A DNA stretch of 64,000 bases from an uncultured Phycisphaerales bacterium (GTDB taxonomy: Bacteria > Planctomycetota > Phycisphaerae > Phycisphaerales > UBA1924): assembly GCA_937997415.1 (NCBI GenBank), contig CALKVL010000017.1, positions 44,504 to 108,503 on the forward strand, written 5' to 3'. Each line of letters begins with the position of its first letter. Position 1 is the first letter of the stretch. The position numbers were made by a program, and so were the translations under genes. The notes under the pieces are model-generated. The model saw only the letters and a list, made by a program, of their open reading frames with translations, was not told the DNA's origin and ran no database searches. Below are positions 1-47,010 of the stretch, in pieces.

Positions 1-2577
1 GCCCACGCTGGCGAGATGCTCGCCATCGGGGCTGAACGCCACGCTCGGCACGCCGCCGGCGTGCCCCACCAACCGGCGCCGCTCGGGGGAGTCGCCCATG
101 TGGATCACACGCAGCTGTTTGCCGACGGAGAGGATGGTGCGTGATTCGGCGGCGATATGGAGTTCGTACGCTCCAAGCGAGAGGCGGGCGGCATCGGCAT
201 TGGTGGCGATGTTGACGAGTCGTACCAGCGACTCCTGAGGCATCGGCACGGCGAGAGTGGTGCGGTCAAAGAAGGACGGCGTGTTGAAATAGCCGCGGAG
301 GGTGCAGATGTGGGAGAAGTTCTGCGCATCGAACACGGCGATCCCGGTGTTTGCCACACATGCGAGCGAGGATGTGTTGTCGTTGAACAGGACTGCCGAG
401 ATGAAAGTAAGACCCGGGGCCAGCGTGGCCAGCGGCCGATCTGATTTGACATCACGGATTTCGCACTCAACGCCCCCGGCGGTTCTCACGGCGACGAGCT
501 GTCGATCCCCAGAGAGTCCCACGGGATGACCCTCAACGACGGAAAGTGTCTCTCCGGTGAGAAGGTCGATCAGTCGATGCACACCAGCCTCGCCTGGAAC
601 GGCGGCGATCACACCGGCGGACGTTTTGAGCATACGGATCGGTCCGGGGGCCGGGGCGCTGCCGATGCGCATCCAAGACCCTCCTTCCTTCTTCCATTGC
701 ACGACTGCCGCACGACTGTCGGCGTTCGTGCCGTTCTCATCGAATGTAAGACCGATGAGGTGCGGAACTGTCGGGGCGAACTGCAGGGCGCGGATCATTC
801 CCTGCTCCGTAAACTCGGCGAGTTGCCTGCCCGACGATGTATCGAACACGGTCATTGTGCCGTTGGGTGTTGCGAGAGCGGCGAGCTCGCCCGTGGGATG
901 GATGGCGTAGCACGGATCGGTCAGCGCGTTCCCGGTCGGGGGCCGCTCGTTTGTCGCCAGCTCGATCGGGTCCAGCCCGAGCGGGTCGCCGAGACATCGA
1001 GACGCTTCGGCCCTGAGAATCGCGGGATTCTGGTCTTTGCACTCGATCTCCGCGGCTTGCCTGAGCAGTCCGAAGACGATCGCCCGGTACCCGACCTGAC
1101 GCGCGGAGCGCACGGAGCGGGCCTCGCGGAGGAGCGAGTCGTACAGGCGGGATCGGGCCAGGTCTCGCTGTCTGGTCGCCGCGATCTCGGCAATTTGCGC
1201 GGACTGCTCGGCGGCAAGGGCCCGGTCCTTCTGTCGCAAAGCCCAGATCAGCCCCGCCCCGGTGCCGATCATGCCAAGCACAAGCGCCGCGGCGATGAGG
1301 GTGCCCGCGATCACACCCGTTCGGTTGCGCTTCACGAACTTTCGCAGGCGGTAGACCGTGCTGGGCGGGCTGGCGGTCACGGGTTCATCGTTGAGGTAGC
1401 GGCGGATGTCCGAGGCAAGCCCGTTGGCGGTTTCGTACCGGCGTGAGCGGTCCTTCTCCAGGCACTTCATCACAATCCAATCGAGGTCGCCGCGGAGTGC
1501 GAGGCGGAGTTCACTCGGGTCCCTTGCGTGGCGCTGCTGGGCGGTCCTGTCGGCGGTGATGGTGAGTGAAGAGAGACGGGTGGATGGCTTGGGCGGGTCG
1601 ATCTCTCGGATGGTGCGCATCATTTCGGCGATGCTCAGGCCCATCAGTTCGTCATTGCTGAACGGGGTGGTGCCTGTGAGGAGTTCGTAGAGAAGCACGC
1701 CGAGGCTGTAGATATCACTGCGGGTGTCGATGTCGAGGCCGCTGAGTTCGGCCTGTTCCGGGCTCATGTACGCGGGGGTACCGACAAGTTGACGATGCTC
1801 GGTGAAGAGCGTTCGTTCGGTCAGTTCACCGCTGGTGGCTTTCGCGATGCCGAAGTCGATGACCTTGGGCACGGGCACGCCGTCGTGCAGGGTGATGAGC
1901 ACGTTGCTGGGCTTGATGTCGCGGTGGATGATTCCCTTCTGGTGCGCGTGCTGGATAGCCTGGCAGACGCTGATGAGCAGTTCGAGACGTTCACGGGTGC
2001 CCAGTCGCTCGCCGTCGCAGTACTCCAGCATGGGCACGCCCCGGATGTACTCCATGACAAAGTAGGGGCGTCCCGTGTCGGTGCTCCCCGCATCGAGCAC
2101 ACGGGCGATGTGCGGGTGGTCCATGAGGGCCAGGGCCTGGCGCTCCGCCTCGAAGCGGGCGATCACCTGCTTCGTGTCCATTCCCAGTTTGATGATCTTG
2201 AGGGCTACGCGACGCTTGACAGGCTCGCGCTGCTCGGCCATCCAGACGCTGCCGAAACCGCCCTCGCCGATCAGTTGCAAGAGGCGGTAGTGGCCGATCT
2301 GTGTGCCGGACTCTTCATGGCTGTGCGCGTGCGCGGCCGGCGCGACACGCCCGTGCGTGGCGATCGAACCGCTCGCGGGCGTCAGTACTTCCAGCGTGGG
2401 GGCGGCGAGCGGGTCTTCGGCAGGAGTCGCACTCTCCAGGAGCTCGCAAACCGCCTTTCGGAGGGTCGGATCGCTTCCACACCAGCGGTCGAGGGCCGCG
2501 GCTCGACCCTCGGGCGCGAGTTCGGCGATCCGTTGATAGATGCGACTGACGCGGGGATCTGGGGCGGCGGGAGGCAT
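1..2577 (-). CDS. Ser/Thr protein kinase (Hanks type) with one TM segment and a C-terminal beta-propeller/WD40-like region; 3' end cut by the window edge
   Basis: Not in the ORF track because it has no in-window stop. My reverse-strand translation from ATG 2577-2575 gives MPPAAPDPRVSRIYQRIAEL. It continues with GEGGFGSVW (Gly loop), VALKII, HRDIKPSNVL, DFGIAK and GTPAYMSPEQ. A TM-like segment GVIAGTLIAAALVLGMIGTGAGLIWAL follows. The frame stays open to nt 1 (859 codons). Confidence 0.85.
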   Translation of the reverse strand, partial: MPPAAPDPRVSRIYQRIAELAPEGRAAALDRWCGSDPTLRKAVCELLESATPAEDPLAAPTLEVLTPASGSIATHGRVAPAAHAHSHEESGTQIGHYRLLQLIGEGGFGSVWMAEQREPVKRRVALKIIKLGMDTKQVIARFEAERQALALMDHPHIARVLDAGSTDTGRPYFVMEYIRGVPMLEYCDGERLGTRERLELLISVCQAIQHAHQKGIIHRDIKPSNVLITLHDGVPVPKVIDFGIAKATSGELTERTLFTEHRQLVGTPAYMSPEQAELSGLDIDTRSDIYSLGVLLYELLTGTTPFSNDELMGLSIAEMMRTIREIDPPKPSTRLSSLTITADRTAQQRHARDPSELRLALRGDLDWIVMKCLEKDRSRRYETANGLASDIRRYLNDEPVTASPPSTVYRLRKFVKRNRTGVIAGTLIAAALVLGMIGTGAGLIWALRQKDRALAAEQSAQIAEIAATRQRDLARSRLYDSLLREARSVRSARQVGYRAIVFGLLRQAAEIECKDQNPAILRAEASRCLGDPLGLDPIELATNERPPTGNALTDPCYAIHPTGELAALATPNGTMTVFDTSSGRQLAEFTEQGMIRALQFAPTVPHLIGLTFDENGTNADSRAAVVQWKKEGGSWMRIGSAPAPGPIRMLKTSAGVIAAVPGEAGVHRLIDLLTGETLSVVEGHPVGLSGDRQLVAVRTAGGVECEIRDVKSDRPLATLAPGLTFISAVLFNDNTSSLACVANTGIAVFDAQNFSHICTLRGYFNTPSFFDRTTLAVPMPQESLVRLVNIATNADAARLSLGAYELHIAAESRTILSVGKQLRVIHMGDSPERRRLVGHAGGVPSVAFSPDGEHLASVG

Positions 2578-2761
2578 GCAGCGTGGGACCGCTCTGGAAC
2601 AGACGGATTGGATGAAAGGCAATGGATGATACCACGGGAGTTTCACTCCCAGCGTGCAGGAACACTCGGCACAGAGGTCTCTGGGTTCAATGAACATCTG
2701 GTTCGTGGAGTGCCGAGGGTGTTCTCCGGGAAACAGATGAAGGAAATCTCACCATACACAC

Positions 2762-2790
2762 TTGACAAATATATCTATAGCAGATATATT
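2762..2790 (+). promoter_or_regulatory. Sigma70-type promoter with embedded inverted-repeat operator for the PadR gene
   Basis: TTGACA (2762-2767), 17-bp spacer, TATATT (2785-2790). Perfect inverted repeat AATATATCT-N5-AGATATATT at 2768-2790. The ATG at 2797 lies 6 nt after the -10. Confidence 0.5.
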
Positions 2791-2796
2791 GACATC

Positions 2797-3156
2797 ATGG
2801 CTGTCGAAGACTCCACCGATCTGGTCGTCCTGTCCATGCTCGCGGAAGGTCCCATGTACGGTTACGCGATCAGCCGCGAGGTGAGCGCGCGATCCGGTGG
2901 TCGGCTTCGGCTGACTCCCGGCGTGCTGTACCCGCTGCTCAAAGGGATGGAGACCGAAGGGTTGGTGCTGACCGAATGGGAGGAAATCAAGAGCGACCGT
3001 GCGGATGAAGAAGCGGGGGGGCGACGCCGCAAGTGGTACCGGCTGTCCGTCAAGGGGCGCCGACGCCTGGAGCAGCGCATCGCGGCGATGCGGGCGTATC
3101 GAGCGATCATCGACACATTCATCGGCCCCGCGCAGGAGAAGGAGCCAACGCGATGA
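2797..3156 (+). CDS. PadR family transcriptional regulator
   Basis: Internal ATG of ORF 1789..3156. Sequence MAVEDSTDLVVLSMLAEGPMYGYAISREV...LTPGVLYPLLKGMETEGLV...KWYRLSVKGRRRL is the typical PadR winged-helix signature. The upstream part of the ORF lies antisense to the kinase gene. Confidence 0.9.
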   Translation: MAVEDSTDLVVLSMLAEGPMYGYAISREVSARSGGRLRLTPGVLYPLLKGMETEGLVLTEWEEIKSDRADEEAGGRRRKWYRLSVKGRRRLEQRIAAMRAYRAIIDTFIGPAQEKEPTR

Positions 3157-4472
3157 CCTCACCGGATCTCGACCCTTCAATCCCGCCCGAGCGGGGAGGC
3201 GGGCCCTCCCTCCGCCTGACTTCGGAGTTGCCTTCGCGCGACGTTGCCGCCGCGGAGATTGGGCGATCCGCCTGGCTCACCGAACTCGCTCCGTTGCTTC
3301 CTGTGAGCGTGAGGCGTGAGTGTCTCGACGAGTTGGAGGATCACCTGCGTTGCCGCGTGAACGACCTGATGCTGAAGGGCCACTCCGAACAAGACGCGAT
3401 GAGTCTGGCGTGCGAGGAACTTGGTGATCCCGCCGGGATCGCCTCCGGATATCGAACCGAGTTGGCCAAACCCAGAAGGAGGCTTGCGATGAATCTCTCG
3501 ATCCTCGGACTTTCCGCCGCGGCGTTGGTGGCGGGCGTGTCCACGCTTGGCACGAGACCTGCGCCCGTGCCCGTATCGGTCTTTCAGGCGGCCGTCGAAC
3601 CGGCGGAGTTCCTTCAGGCGAAAGTGACGACGCCGAAGGATGCCACGTTTGCGCAGTTGCTCGAATCCCTTGGAGCGCCGTCGAAACTGACGGTCGAACC
3701 CGTGTGGAGTGAGTTTCAGGCGGCGGGGCTTTCTCCCGAGAGCAAGTTGGGCTTCGAGTGCAGCGGGTTGCCCGTCGTGACGGTACTGAGGAATCTCAAC
3801 GATCACCTTCAGGAGGAACAGCGATTCGAGTTCCGGGTGCGTGACTTCCGGCTCATCTTCGCACCCACTTCCTATTTCGACCGGACGGAGCAGACCCTGG
3901 CCACCTACGACCTCGCGGGCATTGTGCGGGCTCGACCTGATACATCCGAGGCGCAGGTCATCGAAGAAGCGATTCTTCTCCTCACCGCCCTGATCGAGCC
4001 GAACATCTGGCGTCATAACGGGGGCGATCTCGGCGAGATCAACAGTTTCGGCACCAAACTCTTTGTCCGAGCGCCGCGGCGCATCCATCGTCATGTCGAG
4101 TGGGTGCTGAGCGAACTCCCGAAAGCCGATGCTCCGATCTCCCAGCAAGGGGAGATCCGACTCGGAGTCCTTCCCCAGCGACCGGAGCCGCCTGCCGCCG
4201 GCGAATCCGCGCGGATCGTGATGCTTCAACACGCGGCGGCGGACGATGCCGCCGAGGCGCTTTCAGGGGTCTTTGCCGGGGCCACGATCAAGGGGGTTGC
4301 GATGGACGCCGTTCGTGTGCGTTCCATGCCCCAGACCAACTCTCTCTTGATCCTGGCCGGCCCCAAGCAGCAGGAACTTCTCGACGGGTTGATCGCGGAA
4401 ATGGAACGTAGCGCCGCCCTGAGGAGGGCGGCCGCCGAGGCCAAGGAGCAGGCGTCCAAGGCCGTGAAGTGA
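3153..4472 (+). CDS. PadR-associated single-pass membrane protein: cytoplasmic helical sensor-prefix domain, TM, periplasmic secretin-N/NolW-like domains
   Basis: ATG at 3153 overlaps the PadR stop (ATGA). The N-terminal VRRECLDELEDHLRCRVNDLMLKGHSEQDAMSLACEELGDPAGIASGY resembles the helical prefix domains that follow PadR genes. TM segment: LSILGLSAAALVAGVSTLG. The C-terminal IVMLQHAAADDAAEALSGVF...VRSMPQTNSLLILAGPKQQELLDGLIAEM resembles a secretin N-domain. Confidence 0.7.
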   Translation: MTSPDLDPSIPPERGGGPSLRLTSELPSRDVAAAEIGRSAWLTELAPLLPVSVRRECLDELEDHLRCRVNDLMLKGHSEQDAMSLACEELGDPAGIASGYRTELAKPRRRLAMNLSILGLSAAALVAGVSTLGTRPAPVPVSVFQAAVEPAEFLQAKVTTPKDATFAQLLESLGAPSKLTVEPVWSEFQAAGLSPESKLGFECSGLPVVTVLRNLNDHLQEEQRFEFRVRDFRLIFAPTSYFDRTEQTLATYDLAGIVRARPDTSEAQVIEEAILLLTALIEPNIWRHNGGDLGEINSFGTKLFVRAPRRIHRHVEWVLSELPKADAPISQQGEIRLGVLPQRPEPPAAGESARIVMLQHAAADDAAEALSGVFAGATIKGVAMDAVRVRSMPQTNSLLILAGPKQQELLDGLIAEMERSAALRRAAAEAKEQASKAVK

Positions 4473-4526
4473 CACGCTCCACGCTCAGGGGCGAGTGGCA
4501 CGCCGCATGCGTATCGGCGCAGCGGC

Positions 4527-6584
4527 ATGTCAAGCGTCCCACCCACTCCGGCGAGAATCTCGAACCTGATGGCCTCGCGGATCGCGCTGGGAAACCTGTC
4601 GCGCACGAACGCTGCTCTGTTCGGTGTGCAGCAGCAGTTGGCGACAGGGCTCTCAATCCTGCGGCCTTCGGATGACATTGTCAAGGCCGCCACGATCGGC
4701 ACCCTTGATGACCGCCTGGACAGGTCGGCGCAGATTCAGCGCAACCTCGCGCACGCGGACGCCGCGGTGAGTGAAATGGATGATGCGCTGGCGGAAGCGG
4801 CGTCGATCGCCGAGCAGGCCCGGAGCATCGCCTCGTCCCAGGTCGGGATCACATCCAGCCCCACCGAGCGGGCGGCCCAGGCGGCGGTGGTGGACGGGCT
4901 TCTTCGAGGCCTGTTCACAACAGTCAATCGACAGGGTGTGGCCGGGTACACCTTTGGGGGGACACGCGGGAGCGAACCGCCCGTGCGTGCATTCCTCGGA
5001 GGGTACAGATACCTCCCCACGGGAAGCGGAGCGACTTCGGACCTCGGGCTGGCATCGGCGGCACCCATCACGCTTGGTGACGGCAACCCGATCGCCCGCA
5101 CCTCGGTGAGCGTGAAGGGTGTGGTTGATTTCAATCCCGACCTGACGGGCACGACACGCCTGGCGGACCTGGCCGGAGCGCGTGGCCTTGGAGTGACGCT
5201 CGGCACGGTGGGCGTCTCGTACGGCGGTGGACCGGTCGAGTTCATTGACCTGAGCGGTTCGGACACCATCGGCGATGTTGCGCTGCGCCTGGAAGCGGGG
5301 CTGCGTCGTTATGAGTCGGACCACGGCGTCACAGTTCTCGGTGCTGGCGGCGTGTCGATGCAGGGCGGGTCGCTTTCGATCGCGGTTGCTGCGGGAGCTC
5401 AGACTCTGTCCTTTTCAGAAGTCGGCACGGGCCTGACGGCACGGGATCTGGGACTCAATGCTGAACCACCCATCGCCTTCTCGGCGGGTTCGCCTTTGGG
5501 CGCGGACCTTTCGCCGCGGCTGACCTGGCGGACACCGATCTCAACCCTCGCGGGGCTTGGCGGGCCGCTGGGGAGCATCCGGATCAGCAACGCTGGACAG
5601 ACCGCGGTCGTCGATCTCTCGACGTCGGTCACGCTTCAAGATATCCGGACCGCGGTCGAAGGGACGAACCTGGGTGTCCGGGTCGAGTTGAATACGGGGG
5701 GAGACGGGCTGAACTTCGTAAACGAGATATCCGCCGCGAGCACCAACGCGCTGTCGATCGGGGAGGTATCAGGCGGCACGACCGCCACTCGGTTGGGAGT
5801 GCGGACTTTCTCGCCGCTGACCCGTTTGTCGGAGTTCAACTTCGGGGCCGGCGTTGGCATCGTGAACGGGCTGAACGACCCTTCCGGCGGGGCGGCTTCC
5901 GGGAATCTCAACGAGGACTTTGTGATCACGCTGGGCGACAGCGCGGCGACTCGAATCGCCATCGACCTTCGGCCAGAGGATGTGGTGACCGTGCAGACAC
6001 TCCTGGACCGGATCAACTCCCAGGCGGCCTCGCAACTCATGGCGGCGGGGCTACCCGCGAACTCGCTTGTGGCGGGGCTTGCGACCGACGGCAACGGCAT
6101 TCGTCTCTCGCAGAGCGGGCTTTTCCCGGATCCCCTGAGGGTGGAGGCGAGGAACAACTCACCCGCCGCCGGGCAGATCGGGCTGCTCTCGGGGCGGTAC
6201 GACGCCGGCAGCGCAAGCCTGATCGGCGAAGATCGCGCGAAAGTGCGCATCGACAGCCTGTTCACTCACCTTCTCGACCTGCGAGAGAGCTTGAGCGGGA
6301 ACGACTCTGCTGGCATCGGGCTTGCTGGCTCGGGTGTGAGCGCTTCGCTCGATGAGATCGCGGAACTCCGCGGGGTCGTCGGGGGACACGCTCAGAGGAT
6401 TGAATCGGCGACGGCTCGCGAGTCTGATCGCGCGACGCTCGACGAAACGATCCGCAGCGGCCTTCGGGATTCCGATTATGCGCAGGCCGCGACCCGTTTT
6501 TCTCTCCTCCAGACACAGATGGAGGCGGGGCTGCGGGTCACGGCGCTGAGTTCCCAGCGGACGCTGCTTGATTTTCTCGGTTAG
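4527..6584 (+). CDS. flgL: Flagellar hook-associated protein 3 (hook-filament junction protein FlgL), unusually long
   Basis: Flagellin-type N-terminus RISNLMASRIALGNLSRTNAALFGVQQQLATGLSILRPSDDIVKAA. Flagellin-type C-terminus DSDYAQAATRFSLLQTQMEAGLRVTALSSQRTLLDFLG. It lies directly upstream of fliW-csrA-flagellin. Confidence 0.8.
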   Translation: MSSVPPTPARISNLMASRIALGNLSRTNAALFGVQQQLATGLSILRPSDDIVKAATIGTLDDRLDRSAQIQRNLAHADAAVSEMDDALAEAASIAEQARSIASSQVGITSSPTERAAQAAVVDGLLRGLFTTVNRQGVAGYTFGGTRGSEPPVRAFLGGYRYLPTGSGATSDLGLASAAPITLGDGNPIARTSVSVKGVVDFNPDLTGTTRLADLAGARGLGVTLGTVGVSYGGGPVEFIDLSGSDTIGDVALRLEAGLRRYESDHGVTVLGAGGVSMQGGSLSIAVAAGAQTLSFSEVGTGLTARDLGLNAEPPIAFSAGSPLGADLSPRLTWRTPISTLAGLGGPLGSIRISNAGQTAVVDLSTSVTLQDIRTAVEGTNLGVRVELNTGGDGLNFVNEISAASTNALSIGEVSGGTTATRLGVRTFSPLTRLSEFNFGAGVGIVNGLNDPSGGAASGNLNEDFVITLGDSAATRIAIDLRPEDVVTVQTLLDRINSQAASQLMAAGLPANSLVAGLATDGNGIRLSQSGLFPDPLRVEARNNSPAAGQIGLLSGRYDAGSASLIGEDRAKVRIDSLFTHLLDLRESLSGNDSAGIGLAGSGVSASLDEIAELRGVVGGHAQRIESATARESDRATLDETIRSGLRDSDYAQAATRFSLLQTQMEAGLRVTALSSQRTLLDFLG

Positions 6585-6725
6585 AGAGTCATCACGGGAT
6601 CGATAGCACAGTGATGAACATCCTCCCCGCGTCTCGGCCGCGCGGCGGGGGAAACCAGGATGGGCCACGCCTCACGCGGGGCGCGGCGGATCGGTGGAAC
6701 CGGCCGGCGAAGCGGAGCACTCGCG

Positions 6726-7181
6726 ATGGAAGTGCGGACGACACGATTCGGCATGGTGGAGATCGCGGAGGACCGCGTCATCACCTTCCCCAAGGGGCTT
6801 CTGGGGTTCTCGAAGTTCACACGCTACTGCCTGCTGGAGCCGGGCGACGATGCGTGCTTCTTCTGGCTTCAATCCCTGGACGATCCCGGCCTGGCCTTCG
6901 TGGTCACGGATCCGAGCATGTTCGTGACGAACTACACGGTGCCGATCCGGCCCGAGCAGTTGGGGGACCTGGGCATCGACCGGCTGGAGGATGCGCAAGT
7001 CTTCTGCATCGTGAACAAGGTGGACGGATCACTCACCGGAAACCTGCAAGGTCCGCTGGTCATCAACACCCTGACCCGCAACGGCGAGCAGGTGGTGCTG
7101 GCGGAGAAACGCTGGTCCACACGACATCCGCTGGTCAAGGTGGGCGCGGCGGAACAACGGGCGCGGGCCGTGCCCGCGTAA
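6726..7181 (+). CDS. fliW: Flagellar assembly factor FliW
   Basis: MEVRTTRFGMVEIAEDRVITFPKGLLGFSKFTRYCLLEP...NLQGPLVINT matches the FliW family pattern. GGAG lies 8 nt upstream of ATG 6726. The ORF-track start at 6660 adds a non-conserved Arg/Gly tail. Confidence 0.9.
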   Translation: MEVRTTRFGMVEIAEDRVITFPKGLLGFSKFTRYCLLEPGDDACFFWLQSLDDPGLAFVVTDPSMFVTNYTVPIRPEQLGDLGIDRLEDAQVFCIVNKVDGSLTGNLQGPLVINTLTRNGEQVVLAEKRWSTRHPLVKVGAAEQRARAVPA

Positions 7182-7345: not shown

Positions 7346-7711
7346 ATGCTGGTGCTGTCCCGGCAGCGCGACGAGACGATCATGATCGGCGACGAGATCG
7401 AGATCACGGTCGTGGACATCCGCGGCGACAAGATTCGCCTGGGGATCTCCGCGCCCGCACGTATCGCCGTGCACCGCAAGGAAGTGTACGAATCCATCCG
7501 GAAAGAGAACGAGCAGGCGGCGCGGCTTGCGGGGGAGGAGCTGATCCCCCTCGCGGGCGAGCCGCCGGGGGTATCGCCCGGGCCGCGTCGGTTGCGGGTG
7601 CGACCCGCCTCCGTGACGGGCTTGTCGAGCCCGAAGGCCGCGGGGGCGGCGGGGCAGGTGCGTGCGAACGCACGATCGCCCGACCCATGGGCCTTGAGAA
7701 AGGCGGGCTAG
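7346..7711 (+). CDS. csrA: Carbon storage regulator CsrA (FliW-partner type) with long C-terminal tail
   Basis: MLVLSRQRDETIMIGDEIEITVVDIRGDKIRLGISAPARIAVHRKEVYESI is the canonical CsrA core. AAGGAG lies 7 nt upstream of ATG 7346. The track start at 7217 is an upstream extension. Confidence 0.9.
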   Translation: MLVLSRQRDETIMIGDEIEITVVDIRGDKIRLGISAPARIAVHRKEVYESIRKENEQAARLAGEELIPLAGEPPGVSPGPRRLRVRPASVTGLSSPKAAGAAGQVRANARSPDPWALRKAG

Positions 7712-7804
7712 CAGGTCCGCACACCCATGATCGGCACGCGTCGGGACGGGCGGAACCCGATCCCATCACTCTGAACATCACAGCCTCAATCACGGAGGAT
7801 TGCC

Positions 7805-9361
7805 ATGGCTCGTATTAACACGAACATCCCCAGCCTCATCGCGCAGAAGACCCTTGGCCGTACCCAAACGGAACTGGGCCTGCGACTCGAGCGTCTCTCG
7901 ACCGGACTCAAGATCAACCGCGGAAAGGACGACCCCGCGGGCCTGATCGTCTCGGAGCGCATCCGCTCCAACATCCGCGGCGTCGAAACCGGCGTTCGCA
8001 ACAGCGAACGGGCCAGCGCCGTCATCGCCACCACCGAGGGCGCCCTCGCGGAGGTGAACGATCTGCTGAACTCGATCCGCAGCCTGATCGTCGAGGCCGC
8101 GAACACCGGCGCCAACTCAGCCACGGAGCGAGAGGCCAACCAGCTCCAGATCGATTCGGCGATCGAGTCCATCACGCGCATCTCGAACACGGCCTCGTTC
8201 GGCAGCCTGAAACTCCTCAACGGCAGCCTTGACTACACCCTCTCGGGAGTGCGGAGCAGCGCCATCACGCTGGCCCAGGTGCACAACGCCAACTTCGTGA
8301 ACGGCGCGGCCCTGCAGGTGCAGGTGGATGTCGTCGCCTCGGCGCAGGTCGGGGCGCTGTACTACAACGGCAATACCACACCCGCCGGTGTGACTCTGAG
8401 CGCGATGACGCTGGAGATCGCTGGGCCCAAGGGTGTGCAGGTTATCACCATCGCTTCGGGTCAACCCTTGTCGCGCGTGGTCGCCGCCGTGAACAATCTC
8501 ACGAGTCTGACCGGCGTGGAGGCGAACCTGATCAACGGGTCCGCCGCCAGCGGCATGGTCTTCAACTCTTCGGATTACGGTTCCGACGCCTTCGTCAGCG
8601 TGAAGCGGCTGGGCGGGCCGGGGCAGCCGGGGGACTCCTTCGATCTTTTCAAGTTCACGTCCGGGGCGCCGGTGGTCAGCGATACCCCCTTCGGGTGGTC
8701 TTCGCTGCTCGGCGCCGGCACTCTTATTGCCGGAGATCGCGACAACGGCGCGGACGTGCAGGCGCTGGTGAACGGCAACCTGGCCACCGGACGCGGGCTG
8801 GCCATCTCGGTCAACTCCCCCTCGCTGGGGTTGGAACTCACGCTCACCAGCGCCGCCGCGACACGGCCCAGCGCTACACCGACCACCTTTGACATCACCG
8901 GGGGCGGCGCGCTCTTTCAACTCGGACCGGATGTCACCCCATCCCAGCAGTCCGCGGCGGGGATCCCGTCCATGGCTGCGTCCCGTCTCGGGGCGAGTTT
9001 GGTGGGTGGGGCGGTGCAGTACCTGTCGAGCCTCAAGACCGGTCAAACCAACAGCATCGCCGAGAATGTCCGGCGTGGAAACTTCACGGATGCGAGCAAC
9101 ATTCTCGGCAAGGCCATCGACCAGGTCACGGTGCTCAGGGGACGGCTCGGTGCCTTCGAGCGGAATGTGCTGGAGACCAACCAGCGAAGTCTCCAGACGC
9201 AGTTCGAGAATCTCTCCGCGAGCGACTCGTCGATCCGCGACTCGGACTTTGCCTTCGAGACGAGCCGGTTGACACGGGCGCAGATTCTGGCCAGTTCGGG
9301 GACCAGCGTTCTGAGCCTGGCGAACCAGCAGAGTCAGCAGGTGCTGCAACTCCTCGGCTAA
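7805..9361 (+). CDS. fliC: Flagellin (copy 1, 518 aa)
   Basis: MARINTNIPSLIAQKTLGRTQ...LSTGLKINRGKDDPAGL at the N-terminus. ...IRDSDFAFETSRLTRAQILASSGTSVLSLANQQSQQVLQLLG at the C-terminus. The central region carries a flagellin-IN-like motif (LSRVVAAVNNLTSLTGVEANL). Confidence 0.95.
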   Translation: MARINTNIPSLIAQKTLGRTQTELGLRLERLSTGLKINRGKDDPAGLIVSERIRSNIRGVETGVRNSERASAVIATTEGALAEVNDLLNSIRSLIVEAANTGANSATEREANQLQIDSAIESITRISNTASFGSLKLLNGSLDYTLSGVRSSAITLAQVHNANFVNGAALQVQVDVVASAQVGALYYNGNTTPAGVTLSAMTLEIAGPKGVQVITIASGQPLSRVVAAVNNLTSLTGVEANLINGSAASGMVFNSSDYGSDAFVSVKRLGGPGQPGDSFDLFKFTSGAPVVSDTPFGWSSLLGAGTLIAGDRDNGADVQALVNGNLATGRGLAISVNSPSLGLELTLTSAAATRPSATPTTFDITGGGALFQLGPDVTPSQQSAAGIPSMAASRLGASLVGGAVQYLSSLKTGQTNSIAENVRRGNFTDASNILGKAIDQVTVLRGRLGAFERNVLETNQRSLQTQFENLSASDSSIRDSDFAFETSRLTRAQILASSGTSVLSLANQQSQQVLQLLG

Positions 9362-15691: not shown

Positions 15692-16600
15692 ATGAAAGTT
15701 GGTCAACTCATCTCACTTCTCGTGCTCGCCAACGTGACACTCCCCGGCCTCGCGCAGGTTCGCCCGCCCCGGGAAGGAGAAGATCGTATCGAACGTCGGA
15801 TCGTTGTCATCGATGGCGATGAACAGCCAGCGAAGGAGAAGCGAGAGAGCCGCGGCCGTCGGCCCGGTGATCGTGAGAAGCAGCACGCGCCCGCGAGTCC
15901 GCGCCGAGACGGACCCGGTGGTCCGGAAAACGAAGAGCGCCCACCGAATCCCGTGGACCGCGGCGGCCCGGATGGCGGACAGGCTCGGCGAGGTCCGCGC
16001 GGGCTGGAGAGGATGGATGAGGAAGATGTCATGATCCGTCGCTTTCGTCGAGCGCCTTTCGACGAGTTCGGCGGACACATGGATGCACCACGTCAATCTC
16101 CCCGTGGGGATGGCGTGCCGCCGCCGGGTGGACGGGGCCAGATCGGGCGCGATCAGTTCGGGCGCGGTGGACCTGGACCGATCGGGCCGCGTGGTGAAGG
16201 TGGTCCGGGACATCAAGGTACCAGAGAAAGGCTTGGGCCGGGTCGCTTCGGCAGCAATCAACGCGGGGAGTTCGCACCTCCGGAAAGGCACCATGGGCAT
16301 CACGGGCCGCGTGGCGACATCGGCAGAGGACAAACGCGAGGGGAGTTTCGCAACGGCCCGCGGCGAGATGAGTTCGAGCCACGCCGCGATATGATGAGGA
16401 AGATTCCCCAGCAGCACCCATCCATGCATGAGCGGTTCCGCGGGCGGAATATGGAGAAGTTTGAGAATCGCGGCGGGCAACGCGGTCCATGGCCACGCGG
16501 GATGGGCGGTCGGGAAGGTGCAGGCAAGATTGGACCGGGCAAAGGCCCAGGAAGGTTTGAAGGATCGCCCCGTCACTCCCCTCGTTGGCGTGAGTTCTAA
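15692..16600 (+). CDS. Secreted Arg/Gly/Pro/Glu-rich low-complexity protein
   Basis: AAGGAG lies 8 nt upstream of ATG 15692. Signal peptide: MKVGQLISLLVLANVTLPGLAQ. The remainder is repetitive (GPRG, RGEF, GRGG). The overlapping 432-aa minus-strand ORF has no recognisable features. Confidence 0.5.
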   Translation: MKVGQLISLLVLANVTLPGLAQVRPPREGEDRIERRIVVIDGDEQPAKEKRESRGRRPGDREKQHAPASPRRDGPGGPENEERPPNPVDRGGPDGGQARRGPRGLERMDEEDVMIRRFRRAPFDEFGGHMDAPRQSPRGDGVPPPGGRGQIGRDQFGRGGPGPIGPRGEGGPGHQGTRERLGPGRFGSNQRGEFAPPERHHGHHGPRGDIGRGQTRGEFRNGPRRDEFEPRRDMMRKIPQQHPSMHERFRGRNMEKFENRGGQRGPWPRGMGGREGAGKIGPGKGPGRFEGSPRHSPRWREF

Positions 16601-16690
16601 TACTGGATTTCCTGATCTGCAAGGAACGGCCCGGCGGGTATGCCGGGCCTTCTCTTTCATGGGGATTGAGATCGAGTACGATGGTGGTGC

Positions 16691-17008
16691 ATGGACGCTC
16701 CGCTGCACATCGACCTCAAGAAAGATCGCGGGCTGACGGTTCAGTGGGCGGACGGTTCCACATCGTTTTACTCCATCTCGTATCTGCGGCGCATGTCTCC
16801 AAGCGCCGATGCCAAGACCCTTCGCGAGGAGATGAAGAATAATCCGCTCACCGTGTTGCCCGTGCGAGGGGCGCAAGGACCGCTCACCGCACTCTCGGCG
16901 GAGTTGGTAGGAAACTACGCGATCAAGATTCAGTTCAGCGATGGGCACGCCACCGGCTTGTATTCGTGGCAGTATCTGCGGGACATTGATCCGCGGCAAC
17001 CCGGCTGA
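16691..17008 (+). CDS. DUF971 family protein (gamma-butyrobetaine hydroxylase-like N-terminal domain)
   Basis: LTVQWADGSTSFYSISYLRR...VGNYAIKIQFSDGHATGLYSWQYLRDI matches the DUF971 pattern. Confidence 0.75.
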   Translation: MDAPLHIDLKKDRGLTVQWADGSTSFYSISYLRRMSPSADAKTLREEMKNNPLTVLPVRGAQGPLTALSAELVGNYAIKIQFSDGHATGLYSWQYLRDIDPRQPG

Positions 17009-17011
17009 CAC

Positions 17012-18766: not shown

Positions 18767-20389
18767 TCACGCACCATGAGGCAGGGCCGACGGGAGCGGA
18801 GTTTGGTTCACGGGAGCAGCCGACGGCATCGAGTCGATCGCGTCCGCCAGTGACTTTCCCTCGGCCGCTCGGCGGCGTGCCTCGTTGAACTGCCGCAGGA
18901 GCCTTGAAGCAGCGCAGTCGGGTGGGGCCTGGTCTTGGGTGGCGGCGGCATCTTCGGCGACAAGGAGAATGTCCTCGAGTGCGATGCGCTCCGGGGGGCG
19001 TGCGAGGGTGTACGAGCCTTCCTGCTCTTCATCACTGACCCGGCGGATAAGCCCCGCCTTGGCCAGACGTTCCAGCATCAGACTGACCGTGTGATCATCG
19101 ATTCCGGTGGACTTTGCGGCGTGCGCGTGATCTGTTGAATCACCCCTCGCGAAGCGCTCGGCGACAACAGCCATGACCCGAACCAACGCGGTGGAGTCGA
19201 GGAGTCGAAGCGGAGCCGCCGCGACCTTGCGTGCCATCAGGCCGAGGGTTTCGAGGACAGAATCAGAGTATCCTGCCGCGGTGGCGACTCTGTATGTCTG
19301 GATCGAGTGTGCGAGTTGAAGGCCGAAGAGCACGATCATCCACGTGACGTAGACCCAGAGAAAGAAGAGCGGGAGGAGGGCGAGGGTGCCGTAGAACTGC
19401 GAGTAGCCCGTTGAAAACTTCACGTACGTCGTAAATCCCCACTTGCCGGCCTCCCAGAGGGTTGCACCGACAATGGCACCGATGAACGCCGGGCCGACGA
19501 ACACCCGCGTGTTGGGAACCGTCGCGTAGACGCCGAGAAGCAGTATGGTGCTGATCGTCACGGACACCGCGAATCCGGCGGCGGTCACGAGTGTCTGCGA
19601 CAGCCGGGAGCGGGGGCGAGGAGCGGGGGTGATCGGGGAGTTGGTGTTCGACGGGTTTGCTTCGCCCGCTGCCGGAGAATGCACTTCGGCGGGCGTCGGA
19701 GGCTCTTCCGACGGCTGTGCACTGCTCCGAGCATCTTCACTCGGGGATGCGGCATCATCACGTTCAATGAACGCGATGATCGAGGATTCCGGCAAGGTCT
19801 CGACCCACCGCATGACACGTTCGGTCACACCGAAACTCGCGAAGAGGAAAATCGGTCCGAGAGTCAGCAAGGCCCAGTACTGCGGGATGCGACGCTTCCA
19901 ACTCCGTCCCGTGGGCGAGTGGTAGATGTCGTTGAAAGCGTTCTCAATCTCGACAAGCATGGAGAGCGCGGCGTAGATGAGAGTGAGAATTCCGACAAAC
20001 CCGATGGTCCTAAACGGGAGTTTGTGGATGCCCTCGACGAGGCTGGATATCCAGGAATCGAGGTGTGTTGCTTCCCCCGCCACAAGGGGGATCGCCGGAT
20101 CGATGGGCGGCTGGCTGACGACGATGTTCGAAAGCCCCGCGAACTTGAGCATGGACGAAACGGCTGTGCCGACCATCTCCTTGGACGAAAAAGCGCCCAG
20201 CACGACCAGGCCGATCACCAGCACGGGGATGAGGCTGAAGATGGTGCGGTAGGTCAGCGCCGCGGCCATGCGGGTCAACTGCGATCGCCGGATACCGAGG
20301 ATGCACAGGTGCCCCATGTGGAGGAGTTGCCTGATGGGGGCGGGCCGTGGCAGGCTTGAGGGCGGGTTGTCGTAACGATCGTGCTTCAT
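18767..20389 (-). CDS. YihY/BrkB (virulence factor BrkB) family membrane protein with C-terminal winged-helix-like domain
   Basis: LTRMAAALTYRTIFSLIPVLVIGL, multiple TM segments and YGTLALLPLFFLWVYVTWMIVLFG match the YihY family. The C-terminal IDDHTVSLMLERLAKAGLIRRV looks like a wHTH. Confidence 0.85.
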   Translation of the reverse strand: MKHDRYDNPPSSLPRPAPIRQLLHMGHLCILGIRRSQLTRMAAALTYRTIFSLIPVLVIGLVVLGAFSSKEMVGTAVSSMLKFAGLSNIVVSQPPIDPAIPLVAGEATHLDSWISSLVEGIHKLPFRTIGFVGILTLIYAALSMLVEIENAFNDIYHSPTGRSWKRRIPQYWALLTLGPIFLFASFGVTERVMRWVETLPESSIIAFIERDDAASPSEDARSSAQPSEEPPTPAEVHSPAAGEANPSNTNSPITPAPRPRSRLSQTLVTAAGFAVSVTISTILLLGVYATVPNTRVFVGPAFIGAIVGATLWEAGKWGFTTYVKFSTGYSQFYGTLALLPLFFLWVYVTWMIVLFGLQLAHSIQTYRVATAAGYSDSVLETLGLMARKVAAAPLRLLDSTALVRVMAVVAERFARGDSTDHAHAAKSTGIDDHTVSLMLERLAKAGLIRRVSDEEQEGSYTLARPPERIALEDILLVAEDAAATQDQAPPDCAASRLLRQFNEARRRAAEGKSLADAIDSMPSAAPVNQTPLPSALPHGA

Positions 20390-32251: not shown

Positions 32252-32660
32252 ATCTGCTCCTGAGCACCCAACGGACTGTCCCCCCGGACATCCTTCTTGA
32301 ATATCAACTTCACTCACGACCGCGCGGCCGTCCTATGGCAGCACCGATCGCCGTCGCCAACTGACTGAACGACGAGGGCGCAACGTCCCCTCGTCATACA
32401 CCGAACAATATGTAGCCGTACGCAGGGTCACTTCATCAGTTTCATGGTACCAGCCTCAACCGGCCCCGAATGTAGGACCGTACTCGTACAGGGACCAAAT
32501 ACGGGTTCTGCTGCCAATAAACCAGATCAAAGCCCAGTTGGTGCGTTGTTTTGGTGCCCGTCTGGTATTGCCTGTCTCTGTTCAACTCGGCAGTACTCAT
32601 ATCCTTTTCTACAGGCTGATCTGCTGATGAGATGTAAGTCTCTCTCTACTGTTCTATCTT

Positions 32661-46410: not shown

Positions 46411-47010
46411 TCAGCGGGTTGATCCATCCGCAGTGCCCGGCCGGCGTTTGACGCGGTCTTTGATGTCGCCCGCGATACGCCGTTCGAGCGCGGGGTCGCG
46501 TCGGACAGGCACCTCATACACGGCCCCTGAGGTCCGCATCGGATCTATTGCCAATGTCGTCAGACCGGCTGCCTTGCTCGGGGCACGAAGCCCGGCGGTT
46601 TGTGTGCGGTGAACAGTGACCCAGACGCTTCCCGATACGGTTTCATCGGATGAGGGAGGTCCGCCGCCCTCCCCCTCGAAAGTCACCCGTACCGTTCGTC
46701 TCTGTTGATTGAGGAGGTCTTCGGCCTCATCGTGCACTGTGGATTGCTCCAGATCCCAGGGTGAAGCCAAGCCCATGCTCGACTTCGGTCGTGTGCTCAG
46801 CACGCCTGCCTCGGCATCCACACGGTCGAGAATGAAACGGCTGTCTCGGAGCGAGTCCTTGGCCGCCGCGAACGCACATTCATACTCGCCGATGTTGATC
46901 TCGAACGAGTTGGTCGGGCCGCCCTTGGCGCACCCCACCGCGTGCCACGAACACCATGCCGTCAGTGACAAGGAAGCGAAAAAAGCCCATGAGCGTGGCT
47001 GGGGTTTCAT
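46411..47010 (-). CDS. Putative lipoprotein, hypothetical
   Basis: MKPQPRSWAFFASLSLTAWCSWHAVGC carries a lipobox-like AVGC. The start overlaps the stop of the upstream PIN/TRAM gene (ATGA). Confidence 0.6.
   Translation of the reverse strand: MKPQPRSWAFFASLSLTAWCSWHAVGCAKGGPTNSFEINIGEYECAFAAAKDSLRDSRFILDRVDAEAGVLSTRPKSSMGLASPWDLEQSTVHDEAEDLLNQQRRTVRVTFEGEGGGPPSSDETVSGSVWVTVHRTQTAGLRAPSKAAGLTTLAIDPMRTSGAVYEVPVRRDPALERRIAGDIKDRVKRRPGTADGSTR

What the first reader, a model, noticed from the sequence alone, without database searches (positions are those of the whole stretch)
2797..4472. PadR regulator translationally coupled to a membrane protein whose periplasmic part resembles secretin N-domains, placed directly upstream of late flagellar genes
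The PadR stop and the partner's start overlap (ATGA at 3153-3156). The partner has three parts. First is a cytoplasmic helical domain of the kind that follows PadR genes (ECLDELEDHLRCRVNDLMLKGHSEQDAMSLACEELGDP). Second is one TM segment. Third is a periplasmic region of about 280 aa with elements I associate with secretin/GspD N-terminal domains. These are …YDLAGIV…LIEPNIWRHNGGDLGEINSFGTKLFVRAPRRIHRHVEWVLSEL and a NolW-like IVMLQHAAADDAAEALSGVF…VRSMPQTNSLLILAGPKQQELLDGLIAEM. There is no C-terminal secretin barrel. A secretin-N-like sensor that gates a PadR repressor is not a system I know to be described. Its position 55 nt upstream of flgL raises a possible link to envelope or flagellar assembly status.
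Basis: inference. Interest (0 to 1): 0.65.

Follow-up and report, generated by a model that had tools for sequence, protein, structure and literature searches.

The report
PadR repressor plus secretin-like membrane sensor
This is a two-gene signalling unit from a Phycisphaerae bacterium: a PadR repressor coupled to a membrane protein whose periplasmic part copies the N-terminal domains of secretins. The pairing is a known kind with a sensor type I did not find described, and its position next to flagellar genes looks local rather than functional.

Summary
padR (2797-3156) and a 439-aa partner (3153-4472) overlap in ATGA. The partner has a cytoplasmic three-helix HAAS / perm_prefix_1 domain, one TM helix and a periplasmic region, with no secretin barrel. 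The C-terminal module passes Pfam Secretin_N. The middle 180 aa has no sequence match, but Foldseek matches it only to secretin N0-N1 pairs.

The system is not undescribed in kind. It is a HAAS-PadR dyad (Ravi et al. 2024), tested in Listeria as LltR-Lmo0600. What I did not find described is the sensor. The family has at least 934 clusters at 50% identity, and every located member is in Phycisphaerae or Planctomycetota.

All 14 loci examined have padR directly upstream. Thirteen have overlapping stop and start codons. All carry one promoter-operator, TTGACA-[G/A]ATATATC-N7-GATATATTG. Its half-site occurs nowhere else in 230 kb, including in front of the flagellar genes.

The flgL adjacency appears only in orthologues of at least 52% identity and in none of 11 more distant loci. 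flgL also has a conserved sigma-54-like box of its own.

Best reading: an autorepressed transmembrane anti-repressor module. Any flagellar input would come through read-through only. The sensed signal is unknown.

The parts
2762..2790 (+). Sigma-70-type promoter of the padR operon: -35 TTGACA (2762-2767), 17-nt spacer, -10 TATATT (2785-2790). Only 6 nt separate the -10 from the ATG at 2797, so the mRNA is probably leaderless.
   Evidence: The promoter scan gives 11 of 12 matches; shuffles expect 0.3 such sites in the region. The same TTGAC(A) followed by the same operator is found in 12 of 14 homologous loci; L012 and L013 keep only TTG before the first half-site. The leaderless start is an inference from spacing; the same 6-nt spacing is seen in L001 and L004.
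2768..2790 (.). Predicted PadR operator AATATATC-TATAGCA-GATATATT. It is two copies of a self-complementary 8-mer, 15 nt centre to centre. It fills the promoter spacer and overlaps the -10.
   Evidence: It forms a perfect 9-nt inverted repeat. It is unique in the window at up to 3 mismatches, with 0 expected by chance. ATATATC-N7-GATATAT is exact in 13 of 14 family loci and has 2 mismatches in L008. The half-site [GA]ATATAT[CT] occurs nowhere else in 229,593 nt. In a metatranscriptome variant the spacer bases differ (2776, 2777) while the half-sites do not. Binding by PadR is inferred, not tested.
2797..3156 (+). padR: a 119-aa winged-helix repressor of the PadR family, short type.
   Evidence: Pfam PF03551, 3.6e-18, 65.8 bits. 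The best NCBIfam match is TIGR03433 padR_acidobact at 69.7 bits, below its cutoff of 101.8. A PadR gene lies directly upstream of the partner in 14 of 14 loci.
3139..3156 (+). Coupling junction: Shine-Dalgarno AAGGAG (3139-3144), an 8-nt spacer, then ATGA (3153-3156), which is the partner start overlapping the padR stop.
   Evidence: Read directly from the sequence. The overlap is conserved in 12 of 14 loci as NTGA and in 1 as TGATG. Many loci have AAGGAG-like sequence upstream.
3153..4472 (+). Partner gene: a 439-aa single-pass (N-in) membrane protein, HAAS - TM - N0-like - N1-like - Secretin_N.
   Evidence: AF2 model with mean pLDDT 86.5; the domains are above 90. The family has 934 representatives at E<=1e-3 and 137 at E<=1e-30. 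Of 101 members, 89 hit HAAS and 51 hit Secretin_N.
3237..3443 (+). Cytoplasmic HAAS / perm_prefix_1 helical domain (residues ~29-97; helices 29-48, 51-74 and 79-90, then G91-D92-P93 at the kink before the long helix 93-128). This is the predicted PadR-binding module.
   Evidence: NCBIfam NF038403 at 38.8 bits, above its cutoff of 30. Pfam HAAS at 18.5 bits, below its cutoff. Nearly invariant residues: W41, E60, L61, H64, R68, D71, L72, G76, E79, A82, A86, E89, L90, G91. The GxP kink motif is described in PMC11237479. The interaction with PadR is inferred.
3483..3539 (+). Single transmembrane helix (residues 111-129), preceded by the conserved R109 and R110, which places the N-terminus in the cytoplasm.
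   Evidence: Hydropathy peak of 1.94. One such helix at about residues 95-140 is seen in nearly all of the 60 members checked. It forms part of model helix 93-128.
3621..4118 (+). Conserved periplasmic core with no Pfam family. Residues 157-245 are secretin-N0-like (beta-alpha-beta-alpha-beta-alpha-beta-beta). Residues 246-322 are N1-like (beta-alpha-beta-beta-alpha) and carry the motif W286-x2-N-G290-G291-D ... F304-x2-A307-P308-x-R310.
   Evidence: The domain model has pLDDT 93.2 and pTM 0.82. The Foldseek top 26 hits are all secretin N0-N1: PilQ 1.9e-4, EscC 3.6e-4, GspD 8.8e-4; PilQ N0 alone gives TM 0.48. A sequence profile against PDB finds nothing. W286, P308 and R310 are invariant in 101 sequences.
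4212..4409 (+). Secretin_N (N1/N2-type) module, residues 354-419. It follows a disordered linker (328-343) and continues into a C-terminal helix that runs to residue 438.
   Evidence: Pfam PF03958, 5.7e-08, 33.3 bits, above the cutoff of 28.2. There is a weak PDB sequence match to the GspD N-domains of 5wq7. This position varies within the family: one or two Secretin_N copies, SLBB, Poly_export or LysM.
4496..4510 (+). Sigma-54-like -24/-12 box TGGCACGCCGCATGC in the spacer between the partner gene and flgL. It is a candidate promoter for flgL alone and is not part of the dyad.
   Evidence: The pattern has 2 matches in the window against 0.31 expected. The block TGGCACGC.GC.TGCGTA is kept in L004, the 52% orthologue, while the rest of the spacer is not alignable. 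It is a candidate only; the predicted start site would leave about 6 nt of leader.
4527..6584 (+). flgL (hook-filament junction protein, 685 aa), the first gene of flgL-fliW-csrA-fliC-fliC. It is a neighbour that could receive read-through from the padR promoter, because no terminator-like site lies between them.
   Evidence: Pfam Flagellin_N and Flagellin_C. No terminator-like site was found in 2400-4800. The start at 4527 is supported by the conserved N-terminus MSSVPPTP.RISNLM in L004.

Best explanation
This is an autoregulated HAAS-PadR signalling dyad. It is a one-step transmembrane relay that works like a sigma / anti-sigma pair but uses a repressor.

Proposed mechanism:
1. PadR dimers bind the two GATATATC-type half-sites that sit between and over the -35 and -10 of the operon's own, near-consensus promoter, and shut it off. 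(Inferred.)
2. The translationally coupled partner is made in step with PadR and inserts with its HAAS three-helix domain in the cytoplasm.
3. Its periplasmic stalk is built like the N0-N1-N2 domains of a secretin but has no pore. I take it to be the sensor. (Inferred.)
4. Engagement of this stalk with a periplasmic or outer-membrane partner changes how the HAAS domain holds PadR. PadR is then captured at, or released from, the membrane, and the promoter opens or closes. (Inferred.) Secretin N-domains and the related STN domains act by protein-protein docking.

The only target visible in the data is the operon itself. The flagellar genes downstream would be touched only by read-through. Their adjacency is a feature of one small orthologue group, not of the family.

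Shown here: gene pair, coupling, domain content, fold similarity, and conservation and uniqueness of the promoter-operator. Inferred: PadR-operator binding, PadR-HAAS binding, the direction of the switch, and the signal.
For: - Domains: PadR; perm_prefix_1/HAAS, which also hits 89 of 101 family members; Secretin_N above threshold, and in 51 of 101 members.
- Fold: in Foldseek, the top 32 hits of the full model and the top 26 of the middle domain are all secretin N-domains.
- Pairing: padR is directly upstream in 14 of 14 loci. Stop and start overlap in 13 of 14.
- Operator: conserved in 14 of 14 loci across partner identities of 26-97% and absent from the other ~230 kb. It overlaps the -10 of an 11/12 promoter.
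- Operon shape: in most loci the next gene is on the other strand, so the operon is just the pair.
- Precedent: the dyad model (PMC11237479). Listeria LltR represses its own lltR-lmo0600(DUF1700/HAAS)-lmo0601 operon 100-150-fold, its regulon is mainly that operon, and the next gene rises about 13-fold by read-through (PMC6624303). The PadR gene lftR is co-transcribed with a DUF1048 (HAAS-superfamily) gene that is functionally linked to it (PMC4517056).
- Expression: partner-gene contigs occur in four sediment metatranscriptome assemblies.
Against: - No binding, interaction or expression experiment exists for this family.
- Pfam HAAS is below its gathering score for this protein. NCBIfam's equivalent model passes.
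- N0/N1 likeness of residues 157-322 is at fold level only. TM-scores are 0.3-0.48, E-values are 2e-4 at best, and there is no sequence-profile hit.
- The operator is also the promoter, so part of its conservation could be promoter conservation. The first half-site lies outside both hexamers, though.
- If the only target is the operon itself, the output of the system is unexplained, unless the partner protein is itself the effector.
- Only 64 kb of this genome was searched for further operators.
Confidence: 0.65

Rival explanations
1. Flagellar or envelope checkpoint. The secretin-like sensor reports flagellar or envelope assembly status, and PadR directly controls the late flagellar genes flgL-fliW-csrA-fliC.
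For: - padR-partner-flgL order is kept in the 52%-identity orthologue although the upstream flank differs.
- No terminator-like site lies before flgL.
- A 5.5-kb metatranscriptome contig runs from padR into csrA.
- In Listeria, read-through from a derepressed PadR operon raises the next gene about 13-fold.
Against: - None of 11 more distant family loci has any flagellar gene within reach. Their neighbours are thrS, nrdR and an ECF sigma factor with a kinase.
- The operator half-site is absent from the promoters of flgL, fliW, csrA and both fliC genes, and from the whole window.
- flgL has its own conserved sigma-54-like box.
- The long RNA contig also covers the divergent kinase gene, so it is not one transcript and may contain DNA.
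Confidence: 0.15
2. The partner is mainly a structural envelope protein. It would be an inner-membrane-anchored periplasmic scaffold using ring-building or docking domains, like GspC/PilP partners or secretin N-rings. The PadR/HAAS part would serve only as a dosage feedback on its own synthesis.
For: - The only detectable PadR target is the operon itself.
- The variable C-terminal modules (Secretin_N, SLBB, Poly_export, LysM) are all parts of outer-membrane channel or peptidoglycan-binding proteins.
- The same N0-N1-like core occurs twice in a lipoprotein-like 490-aa protein with no HAAS domain, next to one family member (L015).
- In Listeria the HAAS membrane protein Lmo0600 is the effector whose overproduction is harmful.
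Against: - No secretin, T2SS or pilus machinery genes lie beside any of the loci examined.
- A purely structural role does not explain the strict conservation of the HAAS residues and of the PadR coupling.
- This reading overlaps with the best explanation rather than excluding it.
Confidence: 0.15
3. A classical ligand-sensing PadR. A small hydrophobic or phenolic compound binds PadR directly, as in PadR, LmrR and LadR, and the downstream membrane protein is merely a regulated cargo.
For: Many studied PadR proteins are released from DNA by small molecules (established knowledge of the family; LftR and LadR are discussed).
Against: - No efflux pump or detoxifying enzyme is in the operon.
- The HAAS domain is found specifically with PadR genes and is nearly invariant at 14 positions in this family.
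- Coupling is conserved in 13 of 14 loci.
Confidence: 0.05

Closest known systems
HAAS-PadR-like wHTH dyad (Ravi et al., mSystems 2024, PMC11237479)
   Same: A standalone PadR gene sits next to, and upstream of, a membrane protein that starts with the three-helix HAAS domain with a GxP-type kink (here G91-D92-P93). The dyad was proposed as a one-step alternative to two-component signalling.
   Different: The described sensors are multi-TM modules (PspC, LiaI-LiaF-TM, FtsX-like, FtsW/RodA, VanZ) or intracellular ones (Toastrack, pentapeptide repeats). Here there is a single TM helix and a large periplasmic secretin-N-like stalk. The paper mentions secretins only in its reference list, and Planctomycetes not at all.
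Listeria monocytogenes LltR (Lmo0599) - Lmo0600 (DUF1700) - Lmo0601 operon (PMC6624303)
   Same: A PadR repressor is followed by a HAAS/DUF1700 membrane protein. Autorepression is strong, the regulon is mainly the operon itself, and the downstream gene is raised by read-through.
   Different: It is in Firmicutes. Lmo0600 is multi-spanning and has no secretin-like domain. No operator of the GATATATC type is reported. The signal is unknown there too.
Acidobacterial PadR (TIGR03433) + perm_prefix_1 FtsX-like permease pairs
   Same: The best NCBIfam matches of both window proteins come from this pairing: PadR to padR_acidobact and the partner's N-terminus to perm_prefix_1.
   Different: The PadR match is below that model's cutoff (69.7 against 101.8). 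In those pairs the membrane part is a duplicated FtsX-type permease, not a single-pass protein.
FecR/PupR-type sigma regulators of cell-surface signalling (PMC7186176)
   Same: These are single-pass inner-membrane regulators. [quoted passage not shown] This is the best functional analogy. A FecR-like anti-sigma structure (4m0n) appears among the weaker Foldseek hits.
   Different: The cytoplasmic module there is an anti-sigma domain that acts on an ECF sigma factor, and signalling goes through regulated proteolysis. No TonB-dependent transducer or ECF sigma gene is linked here.
Secretin periplasmic N-domains (GspD/XcpQ N0-N1-N2, InvG/EscC N0-N1, PilQ N0)
   Same: The order and fold of three modules agree (N0-like, then two beta-alpha-beta-beta-alpha modules). 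The last one is recognised by Pfam Secretin_N.
   Different: There is no signal peptide, no C-terminal secretin barrel and no S-domain. The protein is anchored in the inner membrane by an N-terminal TM helix. The N0/N1 similarity is structural only.

Membership tests
PadR family transcription factor (PF03551) | Winged helix-turn-helix PadR domain scoring above the family threshold | tested here: met
   65.8 bits against a cutoff of 27, covering profile positions 1-75 of 75.
PadR family transcription factor (PF03551) | Binds a palindromic operator and represses transcription, usually of its own operon | not testable with these tools
   A conserved dyad-symmetric site overlaps its own -10 in 14 of 14 loci. 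This fits the feature, but binding was not measured.
HAAS-PadR dyad | N-terminal HAAS three-helix domain in the partner | tested here: met
   NCBIfam perm_prefix_1 at 38.8 bits, above its cutoff of 30. Pfam HAAS at 18.5 bits is below its cutoff of 27 for this protein, but 89 of 101 family members hit it, best 9.3e-09. The AF2 model shows helices 51-74 and 79-90, the GDP kink, and helix 93-128.
HAAS-PadR dyad | Strict gene-neighbourhood coupling with a standalone PadR gene | tested here: met
   14 of 14 loci have padR directly upstream on the same strand. 13 of 14 have overlapping stop and start codons.
HAAS-PadR dyad | Physical and functional interaction of HAAS with PadR | not testable with these tools
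   This is only proposed in PMC11237479.
Secretin (GspD/PilQ/InvG; PF00263) | C-terminal secretin beta-barrel domain that forms the outer-membrane pore | tested here: not met
   No PF00263 hit at E<=1. The protein ends at residue 439, directly after the Secretin_N module and a helix. The protein is not a secretin.
Secretin (GspD/PilQ/InvG; PF00263) | Periplasmic N0 plus N1/N2 (Secretin_N) domains | tested here: met
   Secretin_N at 33.3 bits, above the cutoff of 28.2. Foldseek matches XcpQ N012, GspD N0-N2 and InvG at E down to 6.6e-7, probability 1.0. The N0-N1 region alone reaches 1.9e-4. For residues 157-322 the similarity is at fold level only.
Secretin (GspD/PilQ/InvG; PF00263) | Sec signal peptide and export to the outer membrane | tested here: not met
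   There is a 110-residue cytoplasmic N-terminus followed by one TM helix at 111-129, with R109 and R110 before it. No N-terminal signal peptide is present.
FecR/PupR sigma regulator | N-terminal anti-sigma domain and an adjacent ECF sigma gene | tested here: not met
   No FecR or anti-sigma Pfam hit. The upstream gene is PadR, and no ECF sigma gene is in the window region. The resemblance is functional, not membership.
Late flagellar operon member | Conserved linkage with flagellar genes across the family | tested here: not met
   Linkage holds only at 52% identity or more. None of 11 other loci shows it.

The most novel reading that the evidence does not exclude
Phycisphaerae carry a large, lineage-specific set of these dyads. 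In each, an inner-membrane-anchored, pore-less copy of a secretin's N0-N1-N2 stalk docks onto outer-membrane export channels or their inner-membrane partners. In some relatives the stalk is replaced by Wza-type SLBB/Poly_export or LysM modules. The stalk reports the assembly or occupancy state of the channel to a PadR repressor. Because all paralogues share one operator sequence, they would form a cross-wired envelope-surveillance network. The flgL-linked member would feed that signal into late flagellar gene expression by read-through.
Probability: 0.15. Interest if true: 0.7.

Novelty: new variant of a known kind. Interest (0 to 1): 0.45.

Why it matters
Planctomycetota have few studied signalling routes across their unusual envelope. 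This work defines several things:
- A large, uncharacterised family with at least 934 clusters at 50% identity.
- A high-confidence structural model of its sensor.
- A conserved periplasmic core that has no Pfam family.
- A precise, easily testable promoter-operator.

It extends the HAAS-PadR dyad, itself backed by very little experiment, to a single-pass protein whose extracytoplasmic sensor is built from protein-docking domains. That makes it a repressor-based counterpart of FecR/PupR cell-surface signalling.

The kind of system is already described. The flagellar neighbourhood is a local accident of one orthologue group, or at most a read-through connection.

Tried and rejected
- Word-indexed protein searches were nearly blind to this family. 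They returned 1 hit for the protein and 2 for the domain profile. The exhaustive HMMER search was needed.
A 6-sequence alignment gave 9 genome loci, biased towards closer relatives. 'Phycisphaerae only' therefore describes what was found; it is not a proven limit.
- Pfam on the 150-member alignment exceeded the size limit.
- A sequence profile of the middle domain against PDB gave only a non-significant DsrF hit at E 0.67. No sequence-level homology to secretin N0/N1 is claimed.
- The metagenome-wide scan for the exact operator returned mostly AT-rich chance matches. 20 of 120 loci had an adjacent PadR gene. About 28 high-GC matches had no PadR nearby and were not pursued, so the scan did not define a regulon.
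- The metatranscriptome contigs cannot prove co-transcription. The longest contig also spans the divergent kinase gene, and contigs carry no strand.
- I looked for a sigma-28 promoter before fliC by eye and found none convincing.
- I considered that the partner might be a truncated secretin pseudogene and rejected it. The architecture, length class and TM anchor are conserved across the 60 members checked by hydropathy and the 101 scanned with Pfam.
Full report
**1. What is in the sequence**

The window has 63% G+C. Its nearest relative is a Phycisphaerae MAG, GCA_016793105.1, whose copy of the partner protein is 97% identical.

padR runs from ATG 2797 to TGA 3156 and encodes 119 aa. Pfam PadR scores 65.8 bits against a cutoff of 27. 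The partner ORF runs from ATG 3153 to TGA 4472 and encodes 439 aa. The tetranucleotide ATGA at 3153-3156 is the padR stop and the partner start at once. An AAGGAG Shine-Dalgarno sequence lies 8 nt upstream of that start.

The overlap is a family trait. Across the window and 13 homologous loci, 12 of 14 have NTGA and one has TGATG.

**2. Anatomy of the partner**

- The N-terminal 100 residues match NCBIfam perm_prefix_1 (residues 53-101, 38.8 bits, cutoff 30). They also match Pfam HAAS, though below its threshold (18.5 against 27).
- A single hydrophobic helix lies at residues 111-129, preceded by two conserved arginines.
- Residues 354-419 pass Pfam Secretin_N (33.3 bits, cutoff 28.2).
- There is no hit to the secretin barrel, and the protein ends just after this module.

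An AlphaFold2 model built on 101 family sequences has a mean pLDDT of 86.5, with every folded part above 90. It shows:

- three cytoplasmic helices, then G91-D92-P93 and a long helix that becomes the TM segment;
- a periplasmic unit at 157-245 (beta-alpha-beta-alpha-beta-alpha-beta-beta);
- a second unit at 246-322 (beta-alpha-beta-beta-alpha);
- a disordered linker at 328-343;
- the Secretin_N unit at 352-418 (beta-alpha-beta-beta-alpha), running into a C-terminal helix.

**3. Is the periplasmic part secretin-like?**

Foldseek of the full model against PDB gives 32 hits at E<=1e-3. All are periplasmic N-domains of secretins: InvG, XcpQ N0-N1-N2, GspD N0-N2, PulD, ExeD and EpsD. The best E-value is 6.6e-7, probability is 1.0, and about 270 columns align. 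TM-scores are low (0.13-0.32) because the relative orientation of the three modules differs.

I remodelled residues 140-325 alone (pLDDT 93.2, pTM 0.82). Its top 26 hits are again only secretin N0-N1 pairs: PilQ 1.9e-4, EscC 3.6e-4 and GspD 8.8e-4. The isolated PilQ N0 domain gives TM 0.48. A FecR-like anti-sigma structure appears further down at E 0.1.

A sequence profile of the same region finds nothing in PDB, and Pfam has no family for it. It is firm for the C-terminal module. It holds at fold level only for the conserved core that contains the quoted YDL...WRHNGGDL...KLFVRAPRRIH motif.

**4. The family**

An exhaustive HMMER search of 1.84 billion cluster representatives finds 934 proteins at E<=1e-3, 411 at E<=1e-10 and 137 at E<=1e-30. 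Most align over query residues 38-327, which cover the HAAS domain, the TM helix and the N0-N1-like core.

- Of 101 members scanned, 89 hit HAAS and 51 hit Secretin_N. Eight hit SLBB, three Poly_export and two LysM.
- Longer members carry one or two Secretin_N copies, sometimes after an SLBB domain. None of the ten longest or atypical members scanned individually has a secretin barrel; one of the 101 gave a marginal Secretin (PF00263) hit, E about 1e-3, which I did not trace.
- One TM helix at about residue 100-125 is the rule.
- Nearly invariant residues cluster in the HAAS helices (W41, E60, H64, R68, D71, G76, E79, E89-L90-G91). They also cluster in the periplasmic core (W185, R228, D243, Y252, D253, W286, G290, G291, F304, A307, P308, R310, W317).
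- All nine loci found in the genome collection are Phycisphaerae, Phycisphaerales or Planctomycetota MAGs. That scan used patterns from close relatives, so wider distribution is not excluded.

**5. Gene neighbourhood**

In every one of 14 loci a PadR gene lies immediately upstream on the same strand.

The flagellar genes behave differently. The order padR-partner-flgL(-fliW-csrA-fliC-fliC) is present in the window and in the 97% relative (L001-L003). It is also present in a 52%-identity orthologue whose upstream flank is different (L004). It is absent at 43% identity, where the downstream gene is a short-chain-dehydrogenase-like gene (L014). It is absent at 38% (L015) and in all nine genome loci.

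Those other loci sit beside thrS (three loci), nrdR (two loci), or an ECF sigma factor plus a Ser/Thr kinase. Usually the next gene is on the opposite strand. The dyad is thus a self-contained two-gene operon that has landed in different places. The flgL-linked copies are one orthologue group.

**6. A conserved promoter-operator**

Upstream of padR lies TTGACA-17 nt-TATATT (2762-2790), which matches the sigma-70 consensus at 11 of 12 positions. A perfect inverted repeat, AATATATCT-N5-AGATATATT (2768-2790), is embedded in it.

Aligning the 14 loci shows the same design everywhere: TTGAC(A), then [G/A]ATATATC, seven variable bases, then GATATATTG. GATATATC is self-complementary, so this is two palindromic half-sites 15 nt apart. 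The second half-site contains the -10.

- ATATATC-N7-GATATAT is exact in 13 of 14 loci and has 2 mismatches in the other.
- The half-site occurs nowhere else in the 229,593 nt examined, including the rest of the 64-kb window.
- A strain variant seen in a metatranscriptome changes two spacer bases but no half-site base.

I infer that this is the PadR operator and that the operon is autorepressed by occlusion of its promoter.

In the window, L001 and L004, only 6 nt separate the -10 from the ATG, so the padR mRNA is probably leaderless (inference from spacing).

A metagenome scan for the exact site was noisy. Even so, where there was room to look, the matches directly preceded by TTGAC had a PadR gene behind them.

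**7. The flagellar question**

- No operator half-site lies before flgL, fliW, csrA or either flagellin gene.
- The 54-nt spacer before flgL contains TGGCACGCCGCATGC (4496-4510), which has the -24 GG and -12 GC spacing of sigma-54 promoters. The pattern has 2 matches in the window against 0.31 expected.
- The block is retained in L004 while the rest of the spacer has diverged. It is a candidate independent promoter.
- No terminator-like hairpin follows the partner gene, so read-through from a derepressed padR promoter remains possible. This happens in Listeria, where the gene after the lltR operon rises about 13-fold.
- Partner-gene sequences are present in four sediment metatranscriptome assemblies. 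One 5.5-kb contig spans 2300-7372. It also covers the divergently oriented kinase gene, so it cannot be a single transcript and proves nothing about co-transcription.

**8. Mechanism proposed**

The best-supported reading is a HAAS-PadR dyad. PadR represses its own promoter. The co-translated membrane partner binds PadR through the HAAS groove. A periplasmic event sensed by the secretin-like stalk changes that hold.

The gene pair, its coupling, the domains, the fold and the operator conservation are shown here. Binding, direction of the switch and the signal are inferred.

Secretin N0 domains dock inner-membrane partners, and N1-type domains pack against like domains (established knowledge of the GspD, InvG and PilQ structures that appear as hits). 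The STN subdomain of the sigma regulator PupR docks the like-folded signalling domain of an outer-membrane transducer (PMC7186176). The variable C-terminal modules in the family (Secretin_N, SLBB, Poly_export, LysM) all come from outer-membrane channel or cell-wall-binding proteins. The signal is therefore most likely a protein or envelope contact rather than a small molecule. I hold this with modest confidence.

**9. Comparison with what is known**

The kind of system is described. [quoted passage not shown] NCBI models the same N-terminal module as perm_prefix_1. Listeria LltR-Lmo0600 is an experimentally studied case of strong autorepression (PMC6624303).

What I did not find described is the sensor. 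That paper lists multi-TM and intracellular sensors and mentions secretins only in its reference list. A full-text search for PadR with secretin and Planctomycetes returned only one unrelated conference-abstract volume.

- The protein is not a secretin, because the barrel and the signal peptide are absent.
- It is not a FecR-type regulator, because there is no anti-sigma domain and no ECF sigma gene. It probably works like one.

I therefore class it as a new variant of a known kind.

**10. Verdict**

It is right on architecture and secretin likeness, wrong that the pairing is undescribed, and weak on the flagellar link.
- Interest is moderate (0.45). This is a large lineage-specific family with a clean, testable operator and a well-modelled sensor, but no evidence yet of what it senses or controls beyond itself.

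Noticed in passing
window 4496-4510: A sigma-54-type box, TGGCACGCCGCATGC, lies 17 nt before the flgL start. It is conserved in the 52% orthologue locus L004 (TGGCACGCGGCGTGC) although the rest of the spacer is not. The predicted transcript start would leave only about 6 nt of leader.
   Followed up: partly
window 2785-2797: The padR -10 hexamer ends 6 nt before the ATG, as it does in L001 and L004. This implies a leaderless mRNA. More distant family loci have 30-50 nt leaders instead.
   Followed up: partly
L015:2999-4471: The gene after one family member encodes a 490-aa lipoprotein-like protein with no Pfam hit. It contains two tandem copies of the N0-N1-like core (WxxxGGD...LFIxAPxRxH) and no HAAS domain. 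L012:4054-5142 is another HAAS-less relative. The core is therefore a mobile periplasmic domain in Phycisphaerae.
   Followed up: partly
window 7795-7810 (fliC leader) and 7346-7711 (csrA): The flagellin leader reads CACGGAGGA just before the ATG at 7805, which places a GGA-type CsrA site over the ribosome-binding site. This fits the FliW-CsrA-flagellin partner-switch cluster (fliW 6660-7181, csrA, two fliC genes). csrA most likely starts at 7346 (121 aa, as in L001) rather than at the longer ORF start 7217.
   Followed up: no
window 1-2697 (- strand): A Ser/Thr protein kinase with WD40 beta-propeller repeats (1169 aa in the relative MAG) is transcribed divergently from padR. Another family locus (L007) also has a Ser/Thr kinase (with TPR repeats) plus an ECF sigma factor on the divergent side.
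   Followed up: no
window 22697-32317 (- strand): A 3206-aa ORF with coding-like GC3 (0.84) has no Pfam hit at E<=1e-4. Four other large ORFs also have none: 15713-17011 (-), 44617-46404 (+), 47007-48359 (-) and 52346-54580 (-).
   Followed up: no
L026, L070, L096, L134 and about 24 other high-GC metagenome loci: Exact matches to [GA]ATATATC-N7-GATATATTG occur with no PadR-like gene nearby. Several share the flank GTTCCGGGAATATATCGC...ACGATATATTG. They may be operators of another regulator or remote targets of PadR-type proteins.
   Followed up: no
window 3548-3562: A second exact match to TGGCACG-N5-TGC lies inside the partner coding region, at the junction between the TM helix and the periplasmic part. 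It is probably chance.
   Followed up: no
window 18767-20389 (- strand): An unusual fusion ORF combines a BrkB/YihY-type membrane domain with a C-terminal Rrf2 transcription-factor domain.
   Followed up: no
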